Of a stretch of DNA of 64,000 bases, positions 25,802 through 61,623 are shown one piece after another. The notes beneath the pieces are model-generated. The model saw nothing but the letters and a program-made list of their open reading frames with translations. It was not told the origin of the DNA and did not search any database. Position 1 is the first letter of the stretch; every line of letters begins with the position of its first letter. The stretch comes from a virus. The DNA lies in IMG/VR virus record IMGVR_UViG_3300035150_000015, positions 40,444-104,443 of that record. One strand, given 5' to 3'. Position numbers and translations under genes: made by a program.

Positions 25802-25813
25802 AGTATACACCGG
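25802..25813 (-). promoter_or_regulatory. Motif A (candidate middle promoter) CCGGTGTATACT
   Basis: Same core recurs at about 10 gene boundaries. Confidence 0.5.
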
Positions 25814-34672: not shown

Positions 34673-35758
34673 CTACGACCAGTTCTGCCCCCTCCCCACC
34701 TTACCAATCAAGGATACGCACACCCCAAACTCCTCTGATAGCTCCTTGTGAGAGGCCCCCTCAGCCAATCTCTGCCTAACCAGAACCACCTTTTTCCTGC
34801 TGAGCTTGGCCGTCCGTTTGGCCTGATTAATCTCTGAGGGGCTCCCCCACTCCCCGTTTCGTATCCATCCTCTAACCGCACACTCCTCACATTCTCCACA
34901 CGAGTAACTCCCCTCCAAATCGGAACGAGAAAACTTGTAGCCGGCTGGTTTTCCCCCCACATCCTCCAAGAAGGCTTCAAAATTGTCCCTCCATCGCGAA
35001 CACATTGTAATTCCAATGGCACCGTATCGAGCGTACCCATCGTGTTTCGTATTGAAGCATCGAGTCTTGATGCTCCCCCAGGTCTTGTATTCTGGAGATC
35101 CCACACCCCCGTGCTTATAGTTTTTATGCTCCGGGCCCGTCTTACAGGACCTCCTGTTGTGGGTCTGTTGAAGCTTGGAGGCCCATCTCACATTCCCCGG
35201 CTCATACCCTTTCTCGTTGTCTATTCGATCCAGGCTGTGCTGAGGAGTAGGACGAGGACCCACATCATGAAAAAAGACAGTGAAGCCATCCACCCACTCC
35301 TGACAAACCGTGATTCCCCTCCCTCCCCAATTAGGATAGTTTGAGCTATTTGGGTTGAGACATCGATCTTTCATTAAGGCCCAAGCATTGTATTCAGGGG
35401 TATGAATTAAACCGTGCTTGAAATTGGTCTTCCTACCCGGATTCCTAACCGGTCTCAATCTATTGGCCGTTCCGTGAGGCCTACGGTTATTGGCCTGCTC
35501 TTTCCAAGTGGCCCATTTCACATTCCCCGGCCTGTAACCATCATCTACGTCTATCCTGTCTAAACTATGACGAGGAGTAGGCCTTGGACCCACATAGGAC
35601 AAAAAAGCCTCAAAGTCATCAATCCAAGCCCCATACACCCCAATACCCCTCCCCCCATAGTTCAGGTAAGCCCTATGGTCAGGATTTATACAGCGAGCCT
35701 TCAGTTGTTGCCAACACTTGTACTCAGGAGTCTTACTAAGCCCGTGTTTTAGGTACAT
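34673..35758 (-). CDS. Free-standing HNH endonuclease with triplicated domain and C-terminal HTH
   Basis: Three HG...PEY..W...K.RC.N units; the first two carry SLDRID...Y.PGNV.WA. Confidence 0.8.
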   Translation of the reverse strand: MYLKHGLSKTPEYKCWQQLKARCINPDHRAYLNYGGRGIGVYGAWIDDFEAFLSYVGPRPTPRHSLDRIDVDDGYRPGNVKWATWKEQANNRRPHGTANRLRPVRNPGRKTNFKHGLIHTPEYNAWALMKDRCLNPNSSNYPNWGGRGITVCQEWVDGFTVFFHDVGPRPTPQHSLDRIDNEKGYEPGNVRWASKLQQTHNRRSCKTGPEHKNYKHGGVGSPEYKTWGSIKTRCFNTKHDGYARYGAIGITMCSRWRDNFEAFLEDVGGKPAGYKFSRSDLEGSYSCGECEECAVRGWIRNGEWGSPSEINQAKRTAKLSRKKVVLVRQRLAEGASHKELSEEFGVCVSLIGKVGRGQNWS

Positions 35759-35764
35759 GGCCTC

Positions 35765-35775
35765 AGTATATACCG
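35765..35775 (-). promoter_or_regulatory. Motif A variant CGGTATATACT
   Basis: About 7 nt upstream of the HNH ATG. Confidence 0.5.
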
Positions 35776-35815: not shown

Positions 35816-36466
35816 TTAAAAACACTCGTCTCCTCCCCGGTCACTCCACTGAGGAAGCTTCACTTCTCGAAGAATGTTGAAGTTTTTGCCAGCAATAGCG
35901 CTGAAAACCTTGTGATATGGCTCAAACTCAGGGTCCTTGGCTGCAGCAGCCTCCAGAATCCTGACGGCCTTGAAAAACCTATGGCGGACCTGACCTTGTG
36001 TCCGGTCAAGACTTTTTGCGACCTCGCTCTGGCAAGTGGTATCCCACATACCCACCAGAATGTCTACGTCTACAGGTTTGGGGAAAACTTTTGGTAAATC
36101 CCTCCTGAGATCCTCCTCAGTCACCTGGGGAATCGACAACAAGAACTTGATTCGCTGTATCCCCCTGTCTAGTCTGTAGGAAATAGCTGCTTGAGTAACG
36201 CCGAATATGACCGCAATGTCCGCCTGCCGTTTCTTACGGAGGAAATACAATGTGATCAAATCAGCCTCGCGTTCAGGAATCCTATCCAAGAGCGGCCTGA
36301 TTCTTGTCTCGTAGTCGCTGCCTGTGAACAGAGCTACATCTTCGGTAGAAAGCTCCTCGGTCTCCTCATACTCAGAGTCTTCCTCTTCACCGGGTTCTCC
36401 CGGAGTATAGGAAAAACGATTGGATAGTTCAGTCGGGTCGACGGGAATAACGTACCCTTGACTCAT
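35816..36466 (-). CDS. Protein with two tandem sigma70 region-4-like HTH domains
   Basis: IPEREADLITLYF...QADIAVIFGVTQAAISYRL, then QSEVAKSLDRTQGQVRHRF; no region 2 recognisable. Confidence 0.7.
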   Translation of the reverse strand: MSQGYVIPVDPTELSNRFSYTPGEPGEEEDSEYEETEELSTEDVALFTGSDYETRIRPLLDRIPEREADLITLYFLRKKRQADIAVIFGVTQAAISYRLDRGIQRIKFLLSIPQVTEEDLRRDLPKVFPKPVDVDILVGMWDTTCQSEVAKSLDRTQGQVRHRFFKAVRILEAAAAKDPEFEPYHKVFSAIAGKNFNILREVKLPQWSDRGGDECF

Positions 36467-38292
36467 TGAGCCTCGCTGTGTCTGAAAAAGGTGGTCAAAA
36501 CTGACTTAGGGCTGACTTCTATCTGTTTCAAGAGAGATACGACTCCCTCAGGACTAACGTCTGGTCCCTTGATTGAGACAGTAACATCCTCAAGGGTCAT
36601 CAGCCTCAAATTCAATCTTACCTGAGGTTCGGCCAAACGCAACCTTTCGTACTGATTTCTCGTAAGGCCGGCCAGCCCAGAATTGTACACACCGTCCACA
36701 GACCCGTGGGCCTTCACCAGGTCCCTCAAGATCTTCTTCGGCACCCTAGGAACCCCCGGAAGATTGTCAGAAGTGTCCCCAAAGAAGGCTCTGAGTTGGC
36801 ATATGTCCTCAGGGAACACGCCCCAATCCTTCCGGACTCCATCAGGGTCGTACAGAATTTCTTTGCGGGACCCGGCCTTGGGGACCAACAGGCTAGTGTT
36901 TTTCGACACTAATTGGAGGAAGTCACGATCATTGGAGAAAATCAAATTCTGTTGACCCTGTAGCTCATTATGCACCAAGGAAGCCAGAACATCATCCGCC
37001 TCATTACCGGGGCTCTCGGCCTGACGGACACCCAACAGCGGTAAAACTCGGTAGAGCAAGTCCAGTTGTTCGTCTGTTCCTTCCCGGTGAGTACGATTAG
37101 CCTTGTACTCTCCGTAAATAGATCTTCGTTTGGAGCCCCCGCGATCTCGATCCCACGCCACGTAGAATACGGCTTCTGGGTACCTCTTCTTCAGGGCACC
37201 CAGTGAGTTCAGAAAGCCCACCACCATTCCAGTGAAACGCCCGTGAGAATCCCTAAGCTCATTCAAGCCAGGGGCCAGCCAGCACCGGTAGGCAAGGTTA
37301 TAACCATCGATAAGGATATTCTGTATCATATTTTTCTTCCCACTATAACGCACTACTTGATACTCCAAACGGTCCAAGCTCTCCCCCAAACTACGAATCT
37401 TGGCCAATACGGCCTCAAACCAAGTAAGTTCAGACAGCTTGTCCTCGATCTCTTCGGGGCTCACAGCATCAGACAAGAAACGGCTCAAGGACATAGTCTC
37501 TTCCCACAAGGGGCCCGCCCTGCCCATCAACCTAGTTGTCTCTGATACTCTGACCCACGTCTTCTGCAAGGTCAGAGACTTATGGTCCAATGACCCATTG
37601 AACAAGGCCACTATCGGCCACCAGGTCAAACCCTGGTCGCACCAAGTATACAGCTCATGGTACTTGTCATATGCCTTGAGAAGGGGCTCCACAGGTGAGT
37701 CCCAGGACAGGATAGGAGCAGCTTTCTGTGTCCACACCTTCAGAGCATTCAACTTAGAGAGAGCAGGTGAAAGTGGAGCTCTATCAACCACTCTCAAGAA
37801 CGACCGAGGAAGAGTGATCAAGCTCTCTTTGCTCCGAAGACACACATATACCTGAACCCTCCCCTGTTCTGGAATTTCCTCAATTACAGTAGCCTCAATA
37901 TTCCTGTAAGGGCCGCTGGTAACCAAGACTGTGTCACCCACCCCAATGCCCTGATCGACCTCCGCCTCAACCTGACGCCGCATCTTCTCCACTTCAGAAG
38001 TCGTGATGGTCGCCAGTTGTCGTTGCTTACCGGCCCCCGGTTCTGTGAGGACTGATTGAATGTAACGAGTGTTTTCTAGACGCAAGTAAGCCGAATCGGT
38101 ATGCTCGTAGCGAACAAAAGCATACCCCTCCACCAGATAATGCACCACCCGGTCATCCCCTATCTGGGTCACGACGGCTGGAACAAACACCTCCGCATCC
38201 TTAACGGTGGCCCGAACCACCTGCCGAATCAGGTCTGGGTCCTCGCCCTCACTGCGTGAGGCCAACTCTAAAACTATCCACTTGTCGGTCAT
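36463..38292 (-). CDS. NusG-like (NGN+KOW) domain fused to Pol I-type 5'-3' exonuclease/flap endonuclease
   Basis: WIVL, VFVP, GYAFV, VGDTVLVTSGPY; then LIDGYN, YKANR, EADD, DRDFLQL, GDTSDNLPGV in one ORF. Confidence 0.85.
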   Translation of the reverse strand: MTDKWIVLELASRSEGEDPDLIRQVVRATVKDAEVFVPAVVTQIGDDRVVHYLVEGYAFVRYEHTDSAYLRLENTRYIQSVLTEPGAGKQRQLATITTSEVEKMRRQVEAEVDQGIGVGDTVLVTSGPYRNIEATVIEEIPEQGRVQVYVCLRSKESLITLPRSFLRVVDRAPLSPALSKLNALKVWTQKAAPILSWDSPVEPLLKAYDKYHELYTWCDQGLTWWPIVALFNGSLDHKSLTLQKTWVRVSETTRLMGRAGPLWEETMSLSRFLSDAVSPEEIEDKLSELTWFEAVLAKIRSLGESLDRLEYQVVRYSGKKNMIQNILIDGYNLAYRCWLAPGLNELRDSHGRFTGMVVGFLNSLGALKKRYPEAVFYVAWDRDRGGSKRRSIYGEYKANRTHREGTDEQLDLLYRVLPLLGVRQAESPGNEADDVLASLVHNELQGQQNLIFSNDRDFLQLVSKNTSLLVPKAGSRKEILYDPDGVRKDWGVFPEDICQLRAFFGDTSDNLPGVPRVPKKILRDLVKAHGSVDGVYNSGLAGLTRNQYERLRLAEPQVRLNLRLMTLEDVTVSIKGPDVSPEGVVSLLKQIEVSPKSVLTTFFRHSEAQ

Positions 38293-39689
38293 ATGGATGG
38301 AATCTGCCGAAGAAGGTTCTTAAACTCAAAACGCCACTGATCCGGGGTCAGGAAGTCCGGATCAGTCTTAGCAAAAATCTGGGATTCCCTCTTATTCTGG
38401 GGGCACCTGGGCTTATCTCCGTTAGCCGAGGACATATCATCCAAACTTGTCAGACGACGAAGGATCTTCTTAGGGGGGACGGATTCTTCACTAGGGGACT
38501 GTACCTCAGGTGGGCCCGTCTGCTCCCTGGAGGAAGATACCTCAACTTTGGAGGTAGCTGGCTCTGAGACCGAAGGTGAGACCGGAGGCTCAGTAGGAAC
38601 GGCCGCCAAGGGCGCCCTGGCCTCTACTACAATTCTAGATTCAACCTGACGGGAAGGCACCCCAGAAGAGCAGCCCAAGACATCACAGATCAGGCTGGTT
38701 TTGGAGGGGCGACGAGCCCCCAAAAAATACCTGGCTAACCCAAGAGTGCCCGGATCCCCGTAAGCAGCATGAACCTCCTTGGCTAACTCCTTGTCTATAA
38801 ACGCGAAATCTATGTGCATCCCATTGGACACACGATAGGAATTCATAGCCGCTTCAGCGAGCCCGGAATAGACCTCCTCAGAGGATCCGACCTGATCGTA
38901 CGCTTGTTCCACCAATTGAATCGCCTTAGCAGGTTCCCCGAGAGAGAGTAATATCTGATAGTATGTCGAAACCACAGAGATTTTCAAGTGCCCCCTGACA
39001 GCCTTCACAGTCACAGGACCCAGCTGGGCAACCATCTCCAAACGGTTCAAGGAGTCTCGGACATGGGTGCCAGAATAATCTATTACCGTTGCAACGGCGT
39101 CTTCCTCGTACTTTACCCCCTCTTGGTCGAGAACCCAGGTCATTCTCTTGAGTATATCTTCCCTGGTAATTTTCCTAAGGGCGTAATCCTCACACCTAGA
39201 GCGGATGGCGTTCCGGATCTTCTCGGGCTCTGTGGTGCACAAGATGCAAACCAGCCTCTTGTCCTCGATAGGCTTCAAGAGAACATCTTGGGCGTCACGT
39301 GACATACGGTGCGCCTCGTCGAATAGGTAAATCCTCTTCTCCACCCCAGGCAAAGCAAAGGGGAGGTCCTCTAGGATAGCCCGGACGTTGTCGATAGTTC
39401 CCTGACTAGCGGCGTCTTTCTCGCTGAAGGCCAGGGAGTCTTCCTCCAGGATCCCTTTACAATTTTCGCACTTGTTGCAAGGCTCCCCGTCCTCCTGAAG
39501 GTCCTGACAAAGGAGAGCCCGTGCCAGAATCCTGGCCAGAGTGGTTTTTCCTTGACCATGGCCACCTGAGAAGATGTAGGAGGTGTCGAGTCCCGTCCCC
39601 TTTTGGAGACGAGACTTGAGCACCTGCACAGCCCCAGACTGCCCCAGGACATCAGAGAAATTCTTTGGACGATACTTGAGATCCCACAT
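38289..39689 (-). CDS. dnaX: DNA polymerase III clamp loader gamma/tau subunit
   Basis: KYRPKNF, GQGKTT, PCNKCENC, DEAH, SRC. Confidence 0.92.
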   Translation of the reverse strand: MWDLKYRPKNFSDVLGQSGAVQVLKSRLQKGTGLDTSYIFSGGHGQGKTTLARILARALLCQDLQEDGEPCNKCENCKGILEEDSLAFSEKDAASQGTIDNVRAILEDLPFALPGVEKRIYLFDEAHRMSRDAQDVLLKPIEDKRLVCILCTTEPEKIRNAIRSRCEDYALRKITREDILKRMTWVLDQEGVKYEEDAVATVIDYSGTHVRDSLNRLEMVAQLGPVTVKAVRGHLKISVVSTYYQILLSLGEPAKAIQLVEQAYDQVGSSEEVYSGLAEAAMNSYRVSNGMHIDFAFIDKELAKEVHAAYGDPGTLGLARYFLGARRPSKTSLICDVLGCSSGVPSRQVESRIVVEARAPLAAVPTEPPVSPSVSEPATSKVEVSSSREQTGPPEVQSPSEESVPPKKILRRLTSLDDMSSANGDKPRCPQNKRESQIFAKTDPDFLTPDQWRFEFKNLLRQIPSI

Positions 39690-40469: not shown

Positions 40470-40480
40470 AGTATACACCG
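40470..40480 (-). promoter_or_regulatory. Motif A CGGTGTATACT
   Basis: Right after the primase stop, upstream of a ~290-nt leader. Confidence 0.55.
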
Positions 40481-42324: not shown

Positions 42325-43004
42325 TTCAAACTCCTAAGGGACAAGTGGTGGGTAACTCCGTCATCCTCTGCTACATCTGTACACCGGTAAGACCGGTCGG
42401 CATGTTCCAAGAGGACGGGTTTGTGGGTGACCAGCAAAAGGTCAACTCCTAGCTCCTTAGCCACTTTCTGTGTGAATCGGCTGGCCTGCTCAAGATACTC
42501 ATCAGAAACAGCCCCCAAAGACTCGTCCATTGCCACGAACGGCCATCGTTTAAGCTTAAGCACGGTTAAAACCCGGAGGGCTAACGAAGTCACACTCGAG
42601 GGGCCCCCGCCAAAGTTCTCCAAGGGTTTACCTCGGTGGGACTGCAAATGACCCCTCTCTCCTTGACGGAAAAAGAAGTCCACTGCCACTTTACCGTATT
42701 TCAAACTGAGCTCAGACTCCAAACTCAAATTCTGATCGTAGAATACCTCTCTCAGAGCCTCGGTCACCACATCTTCTACCGATTTGACCTGCTGGAGGAC
42801 CAGAGAGTCCAACAGGTGTCGGTACAACTCTAGCACCTTGGCCAGCTTCTCAATTCTCTGGCTCAACTCAGAGACCTCGTGTTGTTTCGACTCGATGTCC
42901 GAAACAACACGATTCCTGAGAGCAGTTAGCCGAATGACCCGAGTTTCTAGGGCACGGACCCTACCCCCTAATCCTTCGACGACATGAATCGGGTCACCAC
43001 ACAT
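42321..43004 (-). CDS. SbcC/Rad50-like ATPase, C-terminal half
   Basis: Short coiled coil, signature-like FGGG, Walker B VAMDE, H-loop LVTH. Confidence 0.75.
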   Translation of the reverse strand: MCGDPIHVVEGLGGRVRALETRVIRLTALRNRVVSDIESKQHEVSELSQRIEKLAKVLELYRHLLDSLVLQQVKSVEDVVTEALREVFYDQNLSLESELSLKYGKVAVDFFFRQGERGHLQSHRGKPLENFGGGPSSVTSLALRVLTVLKLKRWPFVAMDESLGAVSDEYLEQASRFTQKVAKELGVDLLLVTHKPVLLEHADRSYRCTDVAEDDGVTHHLSLRSLK

Positions 43005-44209
43005 GCGAAGGATTCCTCTTCTGGCTTAGGAATAATGGTCTTGCCTTGAGGGGTGAGGGAAAAAGACTCAATCGTCCTAAAGAGCCCCTTCTTGCGGCCG
43101 CCTATGGTGCGAATAGCAATACGAAGCTCGACCTCATGACCTTTTACGGGTTCCACCAGCTCTAGGAAATGAGAGATCCCGATGTTGCTGGAAAAATCCT
43201 CGGCTTCAGCCACAGACCATTCTTCCTTGACCGGGCTCACCCCAACAGGAGAACTGACTGCCTGGCCAGTCTTGCTGCTGACTTTGAAGGTGAGTGTTTT
43301 ATCCTCATGGGAATAGGTCAGACGGGCCTTGTCCTTAGCGGTATCCCCTTCCTCTCTCATGTGATAGAGAGCATCAAGGAGTAAGCTCTTCGGGGCAACC
43401 AGTGAAAAAGTTTCCCACTTACGAGGGTAATAGGAATACTTCACGTGTTGCTTAGTCGGCTGTGTCCAACCCAGAACATGCCCCTTGTCTGAGATAGCGA
43501 AGGCAGTCTCTTCATTGGTACGAACAGTGACTTCACCATACCCACACCGTGACAAAAACGAAATGACACTAGGCAGATGGTTGCCGTGAATGGCCAAGCT
43601 CTTCCCCTTTAAGGCATCGCAATGGAAGTAGAAAGAGGTGTTCACTGCAGCTGAAAAGAAGCAACCATCTCCCTTAGCACTCTCACCTTGATTGTCGAAG
43701 ATCCGGATACTCTTCAATTGCTCGTTGCCCTCTGTGACCCCCGCATCATTGGGTTTCACCAAGTGGGGGCGGCACAAGGACAAAGCCTCCTTAAGAACGG
43801 CCACTGGGTAGGTATGCTCCGTAGTAGCCTCCTCCAGAGACTCGTCGCTGGTGCTCAAAAGACCCGGGTCAAAAGACACAAGTTCGGCCGAGGAACCTCC
43901 CTCTGTCCTGTACTTAACCCAGTAAGAGTTGTCTTTAACGCCAGCTTCGATCTCAACCCACCCCCGAAAAGTCTTAAAGGATCCTACTTTCTTGGCCGGG
44001 TAGACAAATGACCCTTCTCCCTCAGACTCCAAAAGTGGTAGGTCCACCCTAATGTGGCGTGAACTGTCTCGAGAATAGACGCGACACACGCCGTCCTTCA
44101 AAACGAACAAGAACCCCTCTCCGCCCTTAGCCGTCACCGGTTTAGGGGACACGATGGAAGCTGTATCTACAGCCTCTTTCAGATCTGCGGCTTGTATTCT
44201 GATTTTCAT
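42968..44209 (-). CDS. dnaN: DNA polymerase III beta sliding clamp (divergent)
   Basis: MKIRIQAADLKEAV start, three-domain length, context with dnaX/holA/holB. Confidence 0.6.
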   Translation of the reverse strand: MKIRIQAADLKEAVDTASIVSPKPVTAKGGEGFLFVLKDGVCRVYSRDSSRHIRVDLPLLESEGEGSFVYPAKKVGSFKTFRGWVEIEAGVKDNSYWVKYRTEGGSSAELVSFDPGLLSTSDESLEEATTEHTYPVAVLKEALSLCRPHLVKPNDAGVTEGNEQLKSIRIFDNQGESAKGDGCFFSAAVNTSFYFHCDALKGKSLAIHGNHLPSVISFLSRCGYGEVTVRTNEETAFAISDKGHVLGWTQPTKQHVKYSYYPRKWETFSLVAPKSLLLDALYHMREEGDTAKDKARLTYSHEDKTLTFKVSSKTGQAVSSPVGVSPVKEEWSVAEAEDFSSNIGISHFLELVEPVKGHEVELRIAIRTIGGRKKGLFRTIESFSLTPQGKTIIPKPEEESFACVVTRFMSSKD

Positions 44210-44243
44210 ATACATCCTCTTTTTATCCCCCGGGCCAAATGGC

Positions 44244-44519
44244 TCAGGATTCATCGATTGCAGCTAGAGCCCTTTCCACCTGGGCAAGGTCCTGGCCGAA
44301 AGTCTCAATCAAACCCTCTAGCTCTGAAGCGGCCTTATCCCTCTCAGCCTTCAGATCCTTCGGGCTATAGCCGGCTTCCCGGATCTCTTTCCCGAGTCTG
44401 GCCAGCTCCTGCCTCTTAACCTCTAACTGACCAGCCAGTTTTGACTTCTTAGCGTCAGCAGCACGATGCCTCCTCAAGAGGTCTTCCACCCGAGCCTGCA
44501 TATTCTCTAGTGAATCCAT
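44244..44519 (-). CDS. Small coiled-coil protein
   Basis: GGAGG SD; heptad-rich; motif A at 44531-44540. Confidence 0.65.
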   Translation of the reverse strand: MDSLENMQARVEDLLRRHRAADAKKSKLAGQLEVKRQELARLGKEIREAGYSPKDLKAERDKAASELEGLIETFGQDLAQVERALAAIDES

Positions 44520-56331: not shown

Positions 56332-59300
56332 CTATCGTATAGGACACGCTCCTGAAGAGCACTCCTCCACCTCCATATCACCACCCCTTACTAAAAGGGA
56401 GTCGTGCTTAATCTGTCCGTACATCTCTTCATACTCAAGTCTGGTACAACTTTCGTAGGGAGGCTGAGCGTAACCATGAGACCTGGGCAGGCATGAGGTG
56501 CTCTTGAGGCGAGGCACAAACTCACGAAGACAAGAAGCTAACTCTTCTCTCTCCGTCTCTGGGTCGAAATTCAAAGTAGCTGAAACAGCGTTGTCAGACC
56601 ACCATTCTTGGATAGCGGCCTGCCGCTCGAACTGACCCCGAAGAGTTTCATTCTTGCTGGTAACCCGGGAATTTTGAGCCTTGGCTGGGAAAGAGAACAC
56701 CCAGGTCCTACGAGTCTTGTCGTAACAATCTTCTTCGAAAGGAACCCCAGCCTCCATCATAGCCTCGGACATTGGGTCGTTTTTAGCGATTCGGGTTCGT
56801 CGAATGTAGTACGGCGCATGAGGAGCGTGGATCCCAGGACTAGATCCATTCAGCAGACTGGTTGTACCACTGGGTTTGGTAGTGGTGACCGCAATCGGAC
56901 GATTCACCCTAAGCCCATCGGCATAATTATCAGCCTCATAACGGACGTACCCGTACCAATCGGCCAACAGATCGGGGGTCCACTCGAAGTCGCAAATTCC
57001 TCCGAGACCTACACCCACCCTCATGTTTTTTCGTTGAATTGCGTCAGACTCCGGGTCCAATAATGTTTGGAGCCTTTGGCGGAGACAATACCGGGTCACC
57101 AGTCGGAATACTGACCTGGGATCTGTGGAGGGCTTAAACTTGGCTGGAAAAACCTCAGCTAGGTTACAGGCCTCCCGGTCGGCCAAAGGCACTTCCCCGC
57201 AGTTGGCTACATACACCCCTATGTAAGATAAGCTCCCACCTTTACTCCTAGTGGAGGTGACCGTGGCTACTGTGTGAAAGTCGTCCACCGTGATATTGTA
57301 CACAGTATGTTCCCCTGAAAGCTCCTCAACCCTAGCTACCTTATGGTTATAGGAGTTCCCAGCTTCAGCCACTTCCTCAAACGAACGGAAACCAAACTTC
57401 AAAGTAGGACCAATTCTAAAAGGAAGTCCCTCTGACTTGCAAAAAAAAGACCATTCCTTACGATTGGGCGGCCGACCCAGACTAAATTTCAAATCGGAGA
57501 AGGCCTTGGCCTGCTTGAGTTTGGTATCTTTCATTCTTGCACTGTGAGTCTTGTCAGTGCCAGCTACCCTTCGAGCCTTCACAGAAGGGTCTGAATTCAA
57601 ATACAAAGTACCACAAGCATTGGAGCAAAAAGAGTACTCCCGGTGTTCATGGCTTACCTCAAACGAAGCGCCGCATCCTTCACACACCTTTGGTACCAAA
57701 ACCCGGCCATCCTTCAGTCGGGCATCGTAACCTTGCTCCAACATAGATTGGTAGGTCCTGACTACTCGAGGGTCCTCACCAACAGCCTCAAAGCCCAATT
57801 CCAGAGCACACGACTTAGCCAGAGTCAGGATAGAACCTAAGGAGTTCGAACGAAATTCGGAAAAGCGTTGAGGAAGACCTAGCTCCTTAGCATGCTCCCG
57901 CCACTCCTTCCTACTGAACCTACGGCCCAATTTCCGAGTCAACCCTAGAGCGTGCTCCCGAATGTCCCCATTAGATAGCCCGGACCACCGACCATTTTTC
58001 TCTCCGGTCTGGTCAATCTCACCATGGAGCCTAGCATGCTCCCTGAAAGTCATAATCTGGAGGTTTTCCGGGGAATTGTTGAGCTGGTCATAGTCCTTGT
58101 GATGAACAACCAAGCCGCCTGTGTTAGCAAAGCCATTTTGCCTACAAGTCGAATAGACTTCCTTCCATCTCTCGGGGTCATGGAATCGGGCGATAAGCCG
58201 ATGTTCAAAAACCCGGCTATCGTGGTAGTCCAGGGTGTTGCAATGAACCAAATAATAGTCCTTGCTGCCCTTCTTCACCCTCTCCAGAGCCTTAGTAAAT
58301 CTAGGGAGACTCATACCGGACTCAAGCTCAGATGCCACCACAACAGACCCGTCTCTCAGAACAAACTTGTGGTCAGGAGTGGTATCCAGGTAACCCCCAT
58401 CATCCAACCACACACGAACCAGCTTCTTAGCATACCCAGTAACCCTGGGATTTCTCCCCATCTTGATCTCAACCTTACCGGTAGCTTTGTTCATAGAGTA
58501 TACAGGGACGTCTAGGCCTTCCTCAGCCAACTGCTGAATTGACACAGCATTTCTACCATCAGCCACAGCAATCAAAGTGTCACCAGAAAAACACGGGTTG
58601 ATTCCAGTCGCCCCCGGGTCCGTCTGCCAGATCAAAGGCAGGTTGATAATCCCAGGCTCCCCGTACTCAATGTTATCTGTAACCAGCCGCTCCCAATTGA
58701 AGTCCTCAAGCTGCCCCCACGATCGGAACATGATGCTATTGTTGGACGTGTGACGGTGGCTTGAAACAGCCTCCCAATCCTTCTTTGCGTCCCTAAAGGA
58801 TTGGTCGGTGGCTTCACCAAGAGCGATGATAGCACTCCGGCGAACATTTCCACTCTTGATACAAAGGCCAATATGGTTAGTGATATCCAAAGCCTCTACC
58901 GAGGTAAGTCTCCTACCCCTGGCTCCTCGAATGATACCCCAAGCTGCTCGTAGTAGGTGGGCTAGTGGGCCCGGGCCGCAAGCAATCCCACCAAAAGTGC
59001 GAATCAGTGAACCACGAGGACGCACATCTGAAACGTCGATAACCAAGTCCTTGCCAGCGTAGGCAGCCTCTAGTACTTTACCCAGAGACGTGACCCATCC
59101 CTCACGAGAGTCTTCGCACAGATATCGAGGGGTGCTCCCATTGAGGAAAGCGGGGCCCTCCGGATGAACTTCATCATAATCCGGGTGGTCTTCTCTGCAC
59201 CAAACGGCAAATCGAGCCTGGTTGTCCACAACATCCGGAAGAGTGTCCAGGCTCCCCAACCCCACACCCACACCACCGCCAAGCATCAGCTGGTTAGCCG

Positions 59301-59664
59301 TCCAAGTCCAATCGTCGATGCCCCTAAGAGTAACAAACCAACAATTGTACCTAGCGTCCGCCGGGATACCTGGAACTCCACCGGTCCACAGGCCACGACC
59401 TGGGGGAAGAGCCTGTCCTGTCCAGAACAAGTGAAATAGCTGCTGGGCCTCTCTCGGGGAAACCCCGGGCGACAGGTTCGTGTTTCCTTCCACTACCCTA
59501 CGGATTGTATCCGTCCACGTCTCTACGTTCCCTCTGCAATACTTCGTAAGATAGGTAGACCGGGCCAAGAGGGAAGAGAATGGGTCGCCCTCCTGACGAT
59601 AAGGGTCCAAGAATTCTTCCTCCAATCTGATCTGGGACGGGCGAGCAACTGTAACAATCTCCAT
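56332..59664 (-). CDS. nrdJ: Class II (B12-dependent, monomeric-type) ribonucleotide reductase with intein
   Basis: PPGRGLW, YNC, GNVRRSA, NP|CGE, CNL, KPSGT, C-terminal CSSGAC; extein about 646 aa. Confidence 0.9.
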   Translation of the reverse strand: MEIVTVARPSQIRLEEEFLDPYRQEGDPFSSLLARSTYLTKYCRGNVETWTDTIRRVVEGNTNLSPGVSPREAQQLFHLFWTGQALPPGRGLWTGGVPGIPADARYNCWFVTLRGIDDWTWTANQLMLGGGVGVGLGSLDTLPDVVDNQARFAVWCREDHPDYDEVHPEGPAFLNGSTPRYLCEDSREGWVTSLGKVLEAAYAGKDLVIDVSDVRPRGSLIRTFGGIACGPGPLAHLLRAAWGIIRGARGRRLTSVEALDITNHIGLCIKSGNVRRSAIIALGEATDQSFRDAKKDWEAVSSHRHTSNNSIMFRSWGQLEDFNWERLVTDNIEYGEPGIINLPLIWQTDPGATGINPCFSGDTLIAVADGRNAVSIQQLAEEGLDVPVYSMNKATGKVEIKMGRNPRVTGYAKKLVRVWLDDGGYLDTTPDHKFVLRDGSVVVASELESGMSLPRFTKALERVKKGSKDYYLVHCNTLDYHDSRVFEHRLIARFHDPERWKEVYSTCRQNGFANTGGLVVHHKDYDQLNNSPENLQIMTFREHARLHGEIDQTGEKNGRWSGLSNGDIREHALGLTRKLGRRFSRKEWREHAKELGLPQRFSEFRSNSLGSILTLAKSCALELGFEAVGEDPRVVRTYQSMLEQGYDARLKDGRVLVPKVCEGCGASFEVSHEHREYSFCSNACGTLYLNSDPSVKARRVAGTDKTHSARMKDTKLKQAKAFSDLKFSLGRPPNRKEWSFFCKSEGLPFRIGPTLKFGFRSFEEVAEAGNSYNHKVARVEELSGEHTVYNITVDDFHTVATVTSTRSKGGSLSYIGVYVANCGEVPLADREACNLAEVFPAKFKPSTDPRSVFRLVTRYCLRQRLQTLLDPESDAIQRKNMRVGVGLGGICDFEWTPDLLADWYGYVRYEADNYADGLRVNRPIAVTTTKPSGTTSLLNGSSPGIHAPHAPYYIRRTRIAKNDPMSEAMMEAGVPFEEDCYDKTRRTWVFSFPAKAQNSRVTSKNETLRGQFERQAAIQEWWSDNAVSATLNFDPETEREELASCLREFVPRLKSTSCLPRSHGYAQPPYESCTRLEYEEMYGQIKHDSLLVRGGDMEVEECSSGACPIR
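57202..58593 (-). mobile_element. Intein (464 aa) with HNH endonuclease at the RNR catalytic cysteine
   Basis: Starts CFSGDT, TPDH block B, VHHKD...N...NL, ends YVAN followed by Cys. Confidence 0.9.
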
Positions 59665-59671
59665 GGGTTCC

Positions 59672-60643
59672 TCACGTAGAAATAGCTAAGACGGCCAACT
59701 CGATACGAGTCCTCTTCGAATTGGCCGCTCCTTTGACTTGGGATTCCAGTCCACATAGCATTTGCATTTGATTTAGGAGGTGGCTGAACTTATGAGCCCT
59801 AGCCAAAGGCACGAGGTTCTTCTCGCAAGCAAAAGCATGCATGTTGAGCCATCGAGCTATAATCTTCACCTCGTCCCCCTTGTCTAGCATCTGACGAGCA
59901 ACGAGGATCTTCTCAGCTTGATTCATCAGGGCACTGACGATCTGCACTGAAGCGGAGTCCCCAGCGCTCTTGTAGAGAGACGAAGCAATCTTGAGGGCGG
60001 TAACGGGCTTTTTTCTAAAGGCTGCATCCGCTACCTGAAAGGCACTAGACGAGTTGAGAGGAGTCACCACCGAAATGACATGAGACTTTTCTACCTTGAC
60101 CCCCTCACCCACCAGATGAACCAGCTTCTTGAGCTCGTTCACTGTAGGGCCCAAGTTGTCCCCCAGCAAATGATAGAAGGCCTCAGCAACACCTTCCCCG
60201 AGAACCAAATTCAGGCCCTTGGCCTCTTTCCGAATCCTAGCCAAAATCTTGTCAACTTGCCAAGGTTTGTAAGCCTCAAAATGGTACACCTTCCCCTTTA
60301 GTCCCGCTTTTGCCCACACCCCCTTCAATTCTTTAGACCGGACGGCGGCCAACAAAACAACAGAAGTGTCCCCAGGGTCCTTCTCCTCAATATACTCTTC
60401 CAGTGCTTCCTCCCCGGACACCTTGTGAGCGTTGTCCAAAATGACAGCCCGGTTGACGACCCGGTCTATCTCAAAACTAGGGACCGACTCGCAAGCAGAC
60501 ACAACCTCCCCGCCAGTCAACTTAGTCCCATCCAGAACCGTAACAAAACGGTCCCCACCTGCCCGCCCTCTGGCCAAGAGCCGGTCTATAAGGAACCCTT
60601 CTTCTCCATAAGCGATGACAAAAGGATGCTTCCTAGGTGCCAT
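59672..60643 (-). CDS. holA: DNA polymerase III delta subunit
   Basis: YGEEGFL, NELKKL, FQVADA pattern; adjacent to holB. Confidence 0.75.
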   Translation of the reverse strand: MAPRKHPFVIAYGEEGFLIDRLLARGRAGGDRFVTVLDGTKLTGGEVVSACESVPSFEIDRVVNRAVILDNAHKVSGEEALEEYIEEKDPGDTSVVLLAAVRSKELKGVWAKAGLKGKVYHFEAYKPWQVDKILARIRKEAKGLNLVLGEGVAEAFYHLLGDNLGPTVNELKKLVHLVGEGVKVEKSHVISVVTPLNSSSAFQVADAAFRKKPVTALKIASSLYKSAGDSASVQIVSALMNQAEKILVARQMLDKGDEVKIIARWLNMHAFACEKNLVPLARAHKFSHLLNQMQMLCGLESQVKGAANSKRTRIELAVLAIST

Positions 60644-60654
60644 AAAGGTTCCGT

Positions 60655-61623
60655 CTACCCGCAAAAAACGGTGGCAAATAAAGACTTTACATGGAATGGG
60701 ATATTGATCTTGCCACGAGACCGATCTTGGAAGATCTTGAGTCCATCCTGGAGCGCCATCAGCCGGTTATCCCCAAGTTGTCCCCTTAGAACCTCAAGCT
60801 CCTCTAAAAGATCGGCATTCACAAGACGAGAGGAGTCGTACTTCACCATTACCAGATCTCGCACCAAGAAGTCGAGGAACCGCAGACCCAGAGACAGCTC
60901 GTCGTCCTCAGGCTTCTTTGAGTAGAGGTTATCCACAGAGGAGAAAATAAGAGACAAGTCACCACTTAGGCCCAATTTCACAATGCTCAAAATTCGGTTT
61001 CTCAGGTCTAGGACACCGGCACCAGAATAGCTGACGGCCCTGCCAATCGAACCTTCTGCTAGGCGTGTGTACACAAGAGCTCTAAGGGGGTCCATTCCAG
61101 ATTCGTCGTCTCCAGTAAGCACCTTCTTCACGAACTCTTCACTCAACCTGTTGTACCTAACTTCACCACACCGGGAACGGATGGTCGGTAGAACTGCTTC
61201 CGCACGTTCGACCAGAAGAAAAAACTGGGTCCTTTTAGGGGGTTGTTCCAATGTCTTCAACAGAGCATTCCCGGCGGCCGAAGTCATTCTGTCTGCACCG
61301 TCCACCAGGACAAATCGAGTCTTCGCCAAAGACGGAAATGTAACGGTCGACCGAATGAGGCCACGGACTGTGTCGACTCCGATTTCTTTCCCCTCCTGGG
61401 GTTTGACCAGAATGAAATCGGGGTGCACACCATGGTCAACTTGGTAGCAATGAGGGCTCGAGGGGTTTCCCTTGGACCAAAGTTCTTTGGCGGCCTCAGC
61501 CACTGAAAAACGGCGACCCACGCCCTCTTCCCCGACCAACAAAAGGGGGTCCGTGATTTTGCCCTCAACTACCTTTCTAAGGTAGCGTACCCCCAATTCT
61601 TGTTCTCGTACATCACTCAGCAA
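60655..61623 (-). CDS. holB: DNA polymerase III delta-prime subunit
   Basis: GEEGVG, HPDF, ADRMT..A.NALLKTLE.P, TIRSRC. Confidence 0.88.
   Translation of the reverse strand: MLSDVREQELGVRYLRKVVEGKITDPLLLVGEEGVGRRFSVAEAAKELWSKGNPSSPHCYQVDHGVHPDFILVKPQEGKEIGVDTVRGLIRSTVTFPSLAKTRFVLVDGADRMTSAAGNALLKTLEQPPKRTQFFLLVERAEAVLPTIRSRCGEVRYNRLSEEFVKKVLTGDDESGMDPLRALVYTRLAEGSIGRAVSYSGAGVLDLRNRILSIVKLGLSGDLSLIFSSVDNLYSKKPEDDELSLGLRFLDFLVRDLVMVKYDSSRLVNADLLEELEVLRGQLGDNRLMALQDGLKIFQDRSRGKINIPFHVKSLFATVFCG

What the first reader, a model, noticed from the sequence alone, without database searches (positions are those of the whole stretch)
36463..38292. NusG paralog fused to a 5'-3' exonuclease: an RNA-polymerase-tethered nuclease
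Seen: NGN+KOW (aa ~1-170), a helical linker, then a Pol I-type 5' nuclease from aa 322 with acidic catalytic motifs intact. It is one uninterrupted ORF between dnaX and the sigma4 protein. Established: NGN binds elongating RNAP; FEN-family enzymes remove RNA primers, flaps and RNA in hybrids. I know of no described fusion of the two. Inference: a phage system coupling transcription to R-loop or primer processing, nick-dependent late activation, or torpedo-like termination. It could also provide antitermination across 64 kb of co-oriented genes with one clear terminator. With the sigma4 protein and motifs A/B, this is the best candidate for an undescribed system here. An internal ATG at 37329 might also yield the free nuclease.
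Basis: partly seen in the sequence, partly recalled or inferred. Interest (0 to 1): 0.8.

Follow-up and report, generated by a model that had tools for sequence, protein, structure and literature searches.

The report
Huge-phage NusG fused to flap nuclease
An uncultured huge phage joins a copy of NusG, the factor that rides on RNA polymerase, to its only DNA flap nuclease in one 609-residue protein; dozens of relatives do the same, which points to an untested physical link between phage transcription and DNA replication that I found in no paper.

Summary
Window 36463-38292 (minus strand) is one 609-aa ORF with four parts:
- an NGN domain and a KOW domain (NusG/Spt5 fold);
- a four-helix linker of about 150 aa;
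- a complete Pol I-type 5'-3' exonuclease (FEN) with every catalytic carboxylate invariant.

The contig is about 22% of a huge phage of roughly 470 kb. The fusion is in frame in 52 of 61 related loci. At least 120 full-length homologues exist (45-76% identity).

A sister clade keeps the two parts as separate, abutting genes without the linker, in the same order: clamp loader, NusG-like gene, FEN, sigma-region-4 gene.

In five complete relatives (436-529 kb) this is the only FEN. Their family-A DNA polymerase lacks a 5' nuclease, and no phage RNA polymerase was detected.

An ATG or GTG at the FEN boundary is kept in 38 of 39 distinct fused genes, so a free nuclease may also be made.

The function is inferred, not shown. 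My reading is that NGN docks on host RNA polymerase and tethers the replication flap nuclease to it.

The scan found this same fusion before in at least eight other genomes, with the same reading. No paper in the searched library describes it.

The parts
36463..38292 (-). Whole NusG-like/linker/FEN gene, 609 aa (P0001)
   Evidence: One ORF. At least 120 full-length homologues. In frame in 52 of 61 loci.
37957..38292 (-). NGN domain, aa 1-112; invariant W5, L10, F36, P38, Y57, F59 (the G-Y-x-F-V strand)
   Evidence: VIA Z 10.3 to RfaH NGN, 8pen_P. The profile aligns G-Y-x-F-V with the FPGYVFV strand of T. maritima NusG. Pfam NusG E 5.5e-4, below the cut-off.
37777..37947 (-). KOW beta-barrel, aa 116-172; invariant V-Q-V...L-R-S-K...P-R
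   Evidence: VIA Z 11.3, rmsd 1.2 A, to the T. maritima NusG KOW, 2xhc. The AF2 model shows strands at 121-170. HMMER aligns L-R-S-K with the I-F-G-R loop of NusG.
37330..37776 (-). Variable helical linker, aa 173-321 (four long helices); only W187 and R298 are nearly invariant
   Evidence: AF2 models. Low conservation. Absent from the split clade. Stays with the NusG half after secondary fission (L053). No convincing structural neighbour.
37327..37329 (-). Internal ATG (M322) at the first residue of the FEN fold; candidate start for a free nuclease
   Evidence: 28 ATG and 6 GTG at this codon, and 4 more GTG within two codons, in 39 distinct fused genes with variable flanks. It aligns with the start codon of the separate FEN gene of L053. 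Shine-Dalgarno evidence is weak.
36820..37317 (-). FEN catalytic (PIN-like) domain, aa 326-491, with the Y-K-A-N-R arch motif and all metal-binding carboxylates
   Evidence: PF02739 E 1.1e-31. Foldseek: plastid exonuclease 9l56 E 1e-17, M. smegmatis FenA 6c33 E 8e-17, ExoIX, the Taq 5' nuclease, T5 FEN. Invariant acids.
36574..36816 (-). FEN H3TH/SAM domain, aa 493-573; family-specific G-V-P-R-V-P-K-K where Pol I enzymes, as I recall them, carry a Gly-rich turn (recalled, not aligned here)
   Evidence: PF01367 E 5.2e-11. Invariant R516, V517, P518, K519, K520. The same variant occurs in the split clade.
36484..36510 (-). Conserved C-terminal tail (P-K-S-V-L-T-T-F-F; family consensus [IL]-L-x-x-F-F-G); candidate clamp-binding peptide
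   Evidence: C-termini of 44 homologues. FENs of the split clade instead end in D-W-L-x-x-I. The function was not tested.
38289..39689 (-). Upstream neighbour: clamp-loader tau/gamma-like ATPase; its stop overlaps the start of the fusion gene
   Evidence: PF13177 E 4e-25; PHROG 5846 E 6.5e-54. Syntenic in all loci.
35816..36466 (-). Downstream neighbour: sigma-region-4 protein (two HTH-like blocks); its start overlaps the stop of the fusion gene
   Evidence: PF04545 E 9e-12. Present after the FEN in every locus with enough flank, in both clades. Alignment A6.
42968..44254 (-). Divergent beta sliding clamp in the same gene array
   Evidence: The family profile A4 hits beta clamp 8dt6 at E 4.6e-7 over 1-362. 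Single-sequence hits: phrog_947 and PDB 1vpk. PF02768 hits the homologue in G003 weakly.

Best explanation
The gene encodes a real, conserved, bifunctional protein of a lineage of huge phages (about 350-530 kb).

Shown here:
- The N-terminal half has the NGN+KOW fold of NusG/Spt5 and keeps the G-Y-x-F-V strand.
- The C-terminal half is a catalytically complete Pol I-type flap endonuclease/5'-3' exonuclease.
- In complete relatives this is the phage's only FEN, and their family-A DNA polymerase has no 5' nuclease of its own.
- The gene lies in the replisome array (beta clamp, primase, clamp loader). It sits directly before a sigma-region-4 gene and the head/packaging genes.

Inferred mechanism:
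- The NGN domain docks on the clamp helices of the host RNA polymerase while it transcribes phage DNA.
- The flexible helical linker keeps the flap nuclease within reach of the upstream DNA and the emerging RNA.
- There the nuclease can remove RNA:DNA hybrids and 5' flaps that arise where replication forks meet transcripts or prime on them: R-loops, and restart primed by mRNA after co-directional collisions. The genome has at least 64 kb of co-oriented genes, so such collisions are expected.
- A second product, free FEN made from the conserved internal ATG/GTG, would do ordinary Okazaki-fragment maturation, probably on the phage beta clamp through the conserved C-terminal tail.
For: Fold and profile evidence for NGN+KOW: and rank 34.

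The invariant Y57 and F59 lie in the strand that aligns with FPGYVFV of NusG. Mutations in the hydrophobic depression of M. jannaschii Spt5 NGN (A4R, Y42A, L44R) abolish RNA polymerase binding (PMC2896526). Equating Y42/L44 with Y57/F59 rests on my knowledge of the motif, not on an alignment made here.

FEN: Pfam E 1e-31, Foldseek E 1e-17 to solved FENs, and all carboxylates invariant.

In five genomes that are 94-100% complete:
- the only PF02739 match is this gene;
- there is a family-A polymerase without a 5' nuclease;
- no beta' homologue was found;
- three of the five carry sigma-70 region 2 genes, which fits use of a bacterial-type RNA polymerase.

Conservation of the link:
- 52 fused loci;
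- 6 + 20 loci with abutting separate genes in the same order;
- a tree with one deep fused clade.

Another member of the NusG-like family is fused to a sigma factor instead (P0208), which ties the family to RNA polymerase.

Internal start codon. Beta clamp and clamp-loader subunits in the array. Late genes directly downstream.
Against: - No binding or activity was measured, and the host is unknown.
- NGN and KOW are below Pfam's gathering scores. The NGN-only profile reaches just E 0.02 against solved NusG.
- The KOW loop that is I-F-G-R in NusG is an invariant L-R-S-K here. From my own knowledge, that loop holds the Phe used for S10 and Rho binding. So this is not a housekeeping NusG, and its KOW partner is unknown.
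- FEN enzymes need a free 5' end. An elongation complex offers only that of the RNA.
- The two parts work as separate proteins in the sister clade. The conserved internal start could mean that the nuclease mainly acts free.
- Very divergent phage RNA polymerases (phiKZ type) might escape the Pfam models used. The T7-type search had a silent control.
Confidence: 0.42

Rival explanations
1. Clamp-coupled late transcription, as in T4. The FEN half binds nicks or flaps and, through its C-terminal tail, the phage beta clamp on replicating DNA. The NGN half holds RNA polymerase. Together with the neighbouring sigma-region-4 protein, this makes late (head and packaging) transcription depend on ongoing replication.
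For: The gene pair lies at the boundary between the replication genes and the terminase, portal and capsid genes. The clamp and the tau/delta/delta' clamp-loader genes are phage-encoded. Both clades have a conserved short hydrophobic C-terminal tail on FEN. The sigma-4 gene is adjacent in every locus with enough flank and its start overlaps the fusion gene's stop in the window. The T4 precedent (gp45 clamp with gp33 and gp55) is established knowledge, not tested here.
Against: The tail matches no clamp-binding consensus cleanly, and it was not tested. No late-promoter motif was established: GGTGTATACT occurs only 5 times, and 2 of 100 shuffles reach that count. NusG-type factors act in elongation, not initiation.
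Confidence: 0.15
2. Fusion of convenience. Two neighbouring, co-expressed genes merged in one clade without any mechanistic coupling. The NusG-like half acts as an elongation or antitermination factor, the FEN half matures Okazaki fragments, and the linker is a passive spacer.
For: The sister clade and two secondary fissions work with separate proteins. The linker is poorly conserved and varies in length, with the FEN domain starting at residue 245-392 in different members. The conserved internal start could restore a free FEN.
Against: The order NusG-like then FEN is kept, abutting, across both clades over a very long divergence (down to 25-30% identity). The fusion has persisted through a clade that has diverged to 38-76% identity. 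A useless tether on the only replication nuclease would be expected to be lost more often than twice.
Confidence: 0.2
3. The NGN-KOW module does not bind RNA polymerase here. Instead it recruits or regulates the nuclease through another partner, such as nucleic acid, the replisome or the ribosome, using the basic invariant L-R-S-K surface of the KOW barrel.
For: KOW/Tudor-like barrels bind many partners; ribosomal uL24, NdhS and PsaE come up. The canonical NusG KOW loop is replaced. The sequence similarity of the NGN domain to NusG is weak.
Against: The NGN fold matches RfaH and Spt5 NGN over nearly its whole length. The G-Y-x-F-V strand is invariant in both clades. The gene is always next to a sigma-region-4 gene. 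One family member is fused to a sigma factor.
Confidence: 0.1
4. Torpedo-like termination or RNA clearance. The tethered 5'-3' nuclease degrades nascent RNA from its 5' end and dislodges RNA polymerase, by analogy with Rat1/Xrn2 working with Spt5.
For: A solved Pol II-DSIF-Rat1/Rai1 complex places a 5'-3' exonuclease beside Spt5 KOW domains (8qsz appears among the KOW matches).
Against: The domain is a Pol I-type FEN. As far as I know, its relatives act on flaps and on strands within duplexes or hybrids, not on free single-stranded RNA. It is also the only replication FEN of the phage.
Confidence: 0.05

Closest known systems
Specialised NusG paralogues (RfaH, LoaP, UpxY, ActX/TaA) and housekeeping NusG/Spt5
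   Same: It shares the two-domain NGN + KOW architecture. The NGN fold is closest to RfaH bound to an elongation complex (Z 10.3). A full-length profile matches T. maritima NusG (E 2e-9). The G-Y-x-F-V strand is conserved. It is a dedicated extra copy carried by a mobile genome.
   Different: None of these known factors carries an enzyme domain; this one continues into a helical linker and a nuclease. The I-F-G-R loop of the KOW domain is replaced by an invariant L-R-S-K. The AF2 model gives a beta-barrel KOW with no sign of the RfaH-type helical, autoinhibited state. No recruitment site like ops was identified.
Stand-alone bacterial and phage FENs / 5'-3' exonucleases (M. smegmatis FenA, E. 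coli ExoIX, T5 D15, T4 RNase H, the Pol I 5' nuclease domain)
   Same: It shares the fold, both metal sites, the arch motif Y-K-A-N-R and an H3TH domain. As in T5, T4 and T7 (from my own knowledge), the nuclease is supplied in trans to a polymerase that lacks it.
   Different: It is fused behind a transcription factor. The H3TH turn reads G-V-P-R-V-P-K-K, which differs from the Gly-rich turn I recall in Pol I-type enzymes (a recalled comparison, not aligned here). It carries a family-specific C-terminal tail.
T4 late-transcription machinery (gp45 clamp, gp44/62 loader, gp33, gp55)
   Same: This is a phage system in which replication proteins loaded on DNA activate RNA polymerase at late genes. 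Here the clamp, the loader, an RNA-polymerase-binding module and a sigma fragment are encoded together just upstream of the late genes.
   Different: There is no homology to gp33 or gp55. The link here would run through a nuclease and a NusG-type elongation factor. Clamp binding is untested.
Eukaryotic torpedo complex (Rat1/Xrn2 with Spt5 on Pol II)
   Same: A 5'-3' nuclease is positioned next to the KOW domains of the NusG homologue on a transcribing polymerase.
   Different: In that complex the proteins are separate, the nuclease is an exoribonuclease of another family branch, and it has no role in replication.

Membership tests
NusG/Spt5 family | NGN domain fold (alpha/beta sandwich) | tested here: met
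   The AF2 N-half model (pLDDT 85.6) matches RfaH NGN 8pen_P (Z 10.3, rmsd 2.9 A, 97 of 101 residues) and M. jannaschii Spt5 NGN 3lpe (Z 8.1).
NusG/Spt5 family | KOW beta-barrel following the NGN domain | tested here: met
   2xhc KOW: Z 11.3, rmsd 1.2 A. Whole NusG or Spt5 chains 4zn3, 1m1g and 6gov_G: Z 8.8-11.1 over 141-153 residues.
NusG/Spt5 family | Sequence match above curated family thresholds | tested here: inconclusive
   Pfam NusG scores 20.8 bits against a cut-off of 22.2, and KOW 19.8 against 22.3. The family profile gives E 2e-9 to T. maritima NusG and 2.5e-4 to E. coli NusG. The NGN-only profile gives E 0.02.
NusG/Spt5 family | Hydrophobic RNA-polymerase-binding depression (G-Y-x-hydrophobic-V strand) | tested here: met
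   Y57 and F59 are invariant in the fused and split clades and align with FPGYVFV. Functional precedent: PMC2896526. The residue equivalence to Spt5 Y42/L44 was not aligned here.
NusG/Spt5 family | Binding to RNA polymerase clamp helices | not testable with these tools
   This needs a complex prediction or biochemistry.
Housekeeping NusG | KOW loop I-F-G-R with the Phe used for S10 and Rho contacts | tested here: not met
   HMMER aligns an invariant L-R-S-K to this loop. The role of the Phe is from my own knowledge.
RfaH-type paralogues | KOW stored as a helical hairpin on the NGN domain (autoinhibition, fold switch), plus an ops-like recruitment site | tested here: inconclusive
   AF2 predicts a beta-barrel KOW, but a prediction cannot exclude a second state. 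No recruitment site was searched for systematically.
FEN / Pol I-type 5'-3' exonuclease (PF02739 + PF01367) | Both Pfam domains above the gathering score | tested here: met
   110.2 bits (cut-off 34.3) and 43.3 bits (cut-off 40).
FEN / Pol I-type 5'-3' exonuclease (PF02739 + PF01367) | Complete set of metal-binding carboxylates and arch Lys/Arg | tested here: met
   D329, E431, D433, D434, D455, D457, D506, D509 and R400 are invariant. D381 and K397 are conserved in 43 of 44 sequences. They are also kept in the split clade.
FEN / Pol I-type 5'-3' exonuclease (PF02739 + PF01367) | Fold match to solved FENs | tested here: met
   Foldseek: 9l56 E 1e-17 (TM by target 0.79), 6c33 E 8e-17, 3zdd, 1tau, 5hml.
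FEN / Pol I-type 5'-3' exonuclease (PF02739 + PF01367) | Flap or 5'-3' exonuclease activity | not testable with these tools
   This needs an enzyme assay.
T4-type clamp-activated late transcription | Clamp-binding tail on the RNA-polymerase-bound factor | tested here: inconclusive
   A conserved C-terminal [IL]-L-x-x-F-F-G (fused clade) or D-W-L-x-x-I (split clade) exists. Binding is untested, and the termini of the phage polymerase share no clear common motif.
T4-type clamp-activated late transcription | Phage-encoded clamp and clamp loader | tested here: met
   Beta clamp 42968-44254. Tau/gamma-like 38289-39689, delta 59672-60664 and delta' 60655-61623.

The most novel reading that the evidence does not exclude
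The protein is a physical bridge between the replisome and RNA polymerase. Its nuclease end sits on the phage beta clamp at nicks and flaps of replicating DNA, and its NusG end sits on host RNA polymerase. Either late transcription is licensed by replication (a second, unrelated invention of the T4 'mobile enhancer' principle), or every elongation complex carries its own tool for clearing R-loops and processing transcripts that forks use as primers. Either way, it would be the first NusG-family factor known to deliver an enzyme to the elongation complex.
Probability: 0.3. Interest if true: 0.85.

Novelty: new variant of a known kind. Interest (0 to 1): 0.66.

Why it matters
NusG/Spt5 is the only transcription factor conserved in all domains of life. 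As far as I know, all its described bacterial paralogues work by protein contacts alone, and none carries a catalytic domain.

A NusG-type module welded to the sole replication flap nuclease would give a concrete handle on how very large, co-oriented phage genomes reconcile replication with transcription. The architecture is kept in dozens of huge phages and mirrored by abutting genes in their sister clade.

It would also show how their late genes are switched on. The parts are small and soluble-looking, and they can be tested with standard RNA polymerase, clamp and flap assays.

Tried and rejected
- **Artefact.** A read-through or assembly artefact is rejected. 52 independent contigs have the same in-frame gene.
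- **Cellular gene or prophage cargo of a bacterium.** Rejected. The hosts of the gene are IMG/VR virus records of 350-530 kb, three of them with terminal repeats.
- **Cultured relatives.** There are none. tblastn of the NGN-KOW part against 50,697 phage records found only one uncultured 485-kb record. The FEN part alone hits SPO1-like and other phages at about 30% identity. Phage G has a separate FEN, and its paper does not mention NusG.
- **Literature.** Seven completed searches of the ten allowed found no description.
- **Linker identity.** It is unresolved. The VIA-wide list was filled by KOW matches. The ESM Atlas gave only TM < 0.5 helical look-alikes.
- **Promoters and terminators around the gene.** Counts were within chance.
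- **Shine-Dalgarno signal before the internal start.** 26 of 48 sequences have a 4-mer. I judge this only mildly above my rough chance estimate of about one third; no control was run.
- **Shared clamp-binding motif between FEN and the phage polymerase.** No consistent motif was found.
- **More distant free-standing NusG-like genes.** Searches for their loci failed for lack of conserved words.
- The contexts of the metagenomic homologues, including the sigma-NusG fusion P0208, could therefore not be read.
- **T7-type RNA polymerase.** The search is uninformative because its control was silent.
Full report
**1. Observation**

Window 36463-38292 holds one ORF of 609 codons on the minus strand. 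Its ATG overlaps the stop of the upstream clamp-loader gene (38289-39689). Its stop overlaps the ATG of the downstream sigma-region-4 gene (35816-36466).

Pfam finds the two domains of a Pol I-type 5'-3' exonuclease well above threshold: aa 326-491, E 1.1e-31, and aa 493-573, E 5.2e-11. It finds NusG NGN (aa 4-105) and KOW (aa 118-148) just below threshold, at E about 6e-4. PHROGs adds 'transcription antiterminator' at E 1.6e-9.

The window is part of an IMG/VR virus record of 104,443 bp that CheckV rates 22% complete. That implies a phage of roughly 470 kb.

**2. The two halves are what they seem**

An AF2 model built on 44 homologues (mean pLDDT 84.6) shows:
- an NGN sandwich at 4-111;
- a KOW barrel at 121-170;
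- four long helices at 175-316;
- a FEN fold from 325 onward.

Foldseek places the C-terminal half with solved FENs: plastid exonuclease 9l56 (E 1e-17), M. smegmatis FenA 6c33 (E 8e-17), ExoIX, the Taq 5' nuclease and T5 FEN.

A separate model of residues 1-322 (pLDDT 85.6) gave these matches:
- RfaH NGN on an E. coli elongation complex (8pen_P, Z 10.3, rmsd 2.9 A, 97 of 101 residues);
- the T. maritima NusG KOW (2xhc, Z 11.3, rmsd 1.2 A);
- whole NusG or Spt5 chains (Z 8.8-11.1).

A profile of the NGN-KOW part from both clades hits full-length T. maritima NusG at E 2e-9. It aligns the invariant G-Y-x-F-V strand (Y57, F59) with FPGYVFV. The NGN part alone is weak by sequence, at E 0.02.

In archaeal Spt5, residues of this hydrophobic depression are needed for RNA polymerase binding (PMC2896526). 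The residue equivalence is my inference.

The same alignment puts an invariant L-R-S-K where NusG has I-F-G-R. So this is not a housekeeping NusG.

All FEN carboxylates (D329, D381, E431, D433, D434, D455, D457, D506, D509) and the arch residues K397 and R400 are invariant or nearly so in 44 sequences.

**3. The fusion is conserved, and its parts stay together even when unfused**

At least 120 clusters (at 90% identity) cover the whole protein at 45-76% identity. JGI auto-names some of them '5'-3' exonuclease/transcription antitermination factor NusG'.

IMG/VR holds 60 related loci on contigs of up to 529 kb. Of 61 loci, counting the window:
- 52 carry the in-frame fusion.
- Six (L056-L061) form a deep sister clade. 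There a NusG-like gene of about 205 aa ends right after KOW, and a FEN gene of 315-355 aa starts within a few bases. There is no helical linker.
- Three (L050, L052, L053) are split at the linker/FEN junction. They are nested in the fused clade at two places, so they are secondary fissions. In L053 the two ORFs overlap by ATGA, and the linker stays with the NusG half.

A further 21 loci were found with free-standing NusG-like proteins. Twenty of them show the same order: clamp loader, NusG-like, FEN, sigma-4. One (L089) lacks the FEN there.

In a search of 1.84 billion representatives, 951 proteins match the NGN-KOW profile. Of the best 150:
- 49 have the nuclease;
- 9 have only the linker;
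- 92 have neither domain. Most of these are free-standing proteins of 160-210 aa, and a minority carry unidentified N- or C-terminal extensions.

Free-standing genes are therefore probably ancestral and the fusion derived. Without an outgroup context, the direction is not proven.

**4. Genomic role**

Synteny around the gene is nearly invariant: beta clamp, ATPase, two small genes, a primase Toprim part, a metallopeptidase, the clamp loader, NusG/FEN, sigma-4, an occasional HNH endonuclease, then three unknown genes.

The 428-aa protein at 42968-44254 is a divergent beta clamp. Its family profile matches 8dt6 at E 4.6e-7 over 362 positions (supported).

Upstream lie these genes:
- RecA, SbcCD-like proteins and a RuvC-like resolvase;
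- a RecD2 helicase and an NAD ligase;
- a class II ribonucleotide reductase with an intein;
- clamp-loader delta and delta'.

Downstream lie the terminase, portal, protease and major head protein. All are on the same strand. The NusG/FEN and sigma-4 genes therefore close the replication module and precede the late genes.

In five relatives that are 94-100% complete (436-529 kb):
- The only PF02739 match is this gene, or the split FEN.
- There is one family-A polymerase of 930-1416 aa, without a 5' nuclease.
- There is no Pol III alpha or family-B polymerase.
- There is no beta' homologue.
- Three genomes carry sigma-70 region 2 genes.

The FEN half is thus the phage's replication flap nuclease, and the polymerase to be modified is most likely the host's. 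One caveat: very divergent phage RNA polymerases could be missed, and the T7-type search had no working control.

**5. Internal start**

Residue 322, the first of the FEN fold, is ATG in 28 and GTG in 6 of 39 distinct fused genes. Four more have GTG within two codons. The flanking codons vary. GTG is only 31% of the Val codons in these domains. The codon aligns with the true start of the separate FEN of L053.

The Shine-Dalgarno evidence is weak, and the codon could be a relic.

**6. Other conserved features**

The C-terminus carries a short hydrophobic tail after a variable acidic stretch. It reads [IL]-L-x-x-F-F-G in the fused clade and D-W-L-x-x-I at the very end in the split clade. This is the usual format of clamp-binding peptides. 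It fits no consensus cleanly, and no shared motif was seen on the phage polymerase.

The linker is helical, variable in sequence and length, and has no convincing structural neighbour.

**7. Interpretation**

Shown:
- a real, conserved protein that joins a NusG-fold module to an apparently active FEN;
- a gene order that keeps the two together across two deep clades;
- the FEN is the sole one in the genome;
- its position between replisome genes, a sigma fragment and the late genes.

Inferred:
- The NGN domain binds host RNA polymerase.
- The tether brings the flap nuclease to elongation complexes. There it would remove R-loops or transcripts used as primers when forks meet polymerases on a long co-oriented genome.
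- Free FEN from the internal start matures Okazaki fragments on the clamp.

I put this at about 0.4. The rivals are:
- a T4-like, clamp-dependent licensing of late transcription (0.15);
- a fusion without mechanistic meaning (0.2);
- an NGN-KOW module with a partner other than RNA polymerase (0.1);
- a torpedo (0.05).

None can be separated without complex prediction or biochemistry.

**8. Comparison and novelty**

As a NusG relative, it meets the fold criteria and keeps the polymerase-binding strand. It fails the housekeeping KOW loop and sits below the Pfam thresholds. It is best called a divergent, specialised NusG paralogue.

As a FEN, it meets every criterion that could be tested.

To my knowledge, no described NusG paralogue carries an enzyme. 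Seven completed literature searches of the ten allowed found nothing on this fusion. The phage G paper does not mention NusG.

The scan itself has met the same fusion in at least eight other genomes, and the follow-ups reached the same reading. I reached mine before reading them.

What this report documents, without knowing how much of it the earlier full reports already contain:
- the beta-clamp assignment;
- the tree with two secondary fissions;
- the absence of the linker in the split clade;
- the 20 additional split loci;
- the KOW loop change;
- the sigma-NusG fusion P0208.

**9. Limits**

The tree is the quick IQ-TREE version, because the careful search did not finish in time. The host is unknown.

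Noticed in passing
window 42968-44254 (-): A 428-aa protein without a Pfam hit is a divergent beta sliding clamp. Its family profile matches PDB 8dt6 at E 4.6e-7 over 362 positions.
   Followed up: yes
protein P0208 (metagenomic, 541 aa; context not readable): A member of the same NusG-like family is fused behind a sigma-70 factor. Sigma70_r2 lies at aa 51-113, Sigma70_r4 at aa 215-263, and the NGN-KOW part at aa 326-492. This is a second, different fusion that ties the family to RNA polymerase.
   Followed up: partly
window 35816-36466 (-) and alignment A6: The sigma-region-4 neighbour is highly conserved. It has two HTH-like blocks and a conserved C-terminal F-N-I-L-R-E-V-K-L-P-Q-W. It also has a conserved N-terminal peptide, G-Y-V-I-P-V-D-P-x-E-L-A-N-R-F, followed by an acidic spacer; this looks like a docking motif.
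   Followed up: partly
window 34673-35758 (-): An HNH endonuclease gene (PHROG 3377, E 1e-93) sits between the sigma-4 gene and the next conserved gene. It is intact in a minority of the related loci (L010, L018, L019, L040, L041, L042, L047), with only short fragments at the same site in L016, L035, L053 and L055. This is the pattern of a mobile homing endonuclease.
   Followed up: partly
L014:3290-6004, L015:3312-6004, L016:3237-6011: In these relatives the clamp-loader gene is about twice as long (904-924 aa in L014 and L016; in L015 it is called as two ORFs). About 1.3 kb is inserted after residue 48, next to the P-loop. An intein or a similar insertion is likely.
   Followed up: no
window 56332-59664 (-): The class II ribonucleotide reductase is interrupted by an intein with an HNH endonuclease (Intein_splicing and HNH_3 hits).
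   Followed up: no
window 25802-25811, 35765-35774, 40470-40479 (-): GGTGTATACT, which looks like an extended -10 element, occurs in three intergenic gaps on the coding strand. With one mismatch allowed there are five matches in the window, and 2 of 100 shuffles reach that count. It may be a phage promoter element.
   Followed up: partly
L089:4387-5864: In one distant relative the free NusG-like gene is followed directly by the sigma-4 gene, with no FEN between them.
   Followed up: no
L064-L068 (family-A polymerases of five complete relatives): The phage polymerases lack a 5' nuclease. In the fused clade they begin with acidic N-terminal tails that carry short hydrophobic motifs, for example D-D-Y-S-D-L-F. 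The split-clade polymerase instead ends in F-L-T-E-L-F-G-L-G. These may be clamp- or SSB-type docking tails.
   Followed up: no
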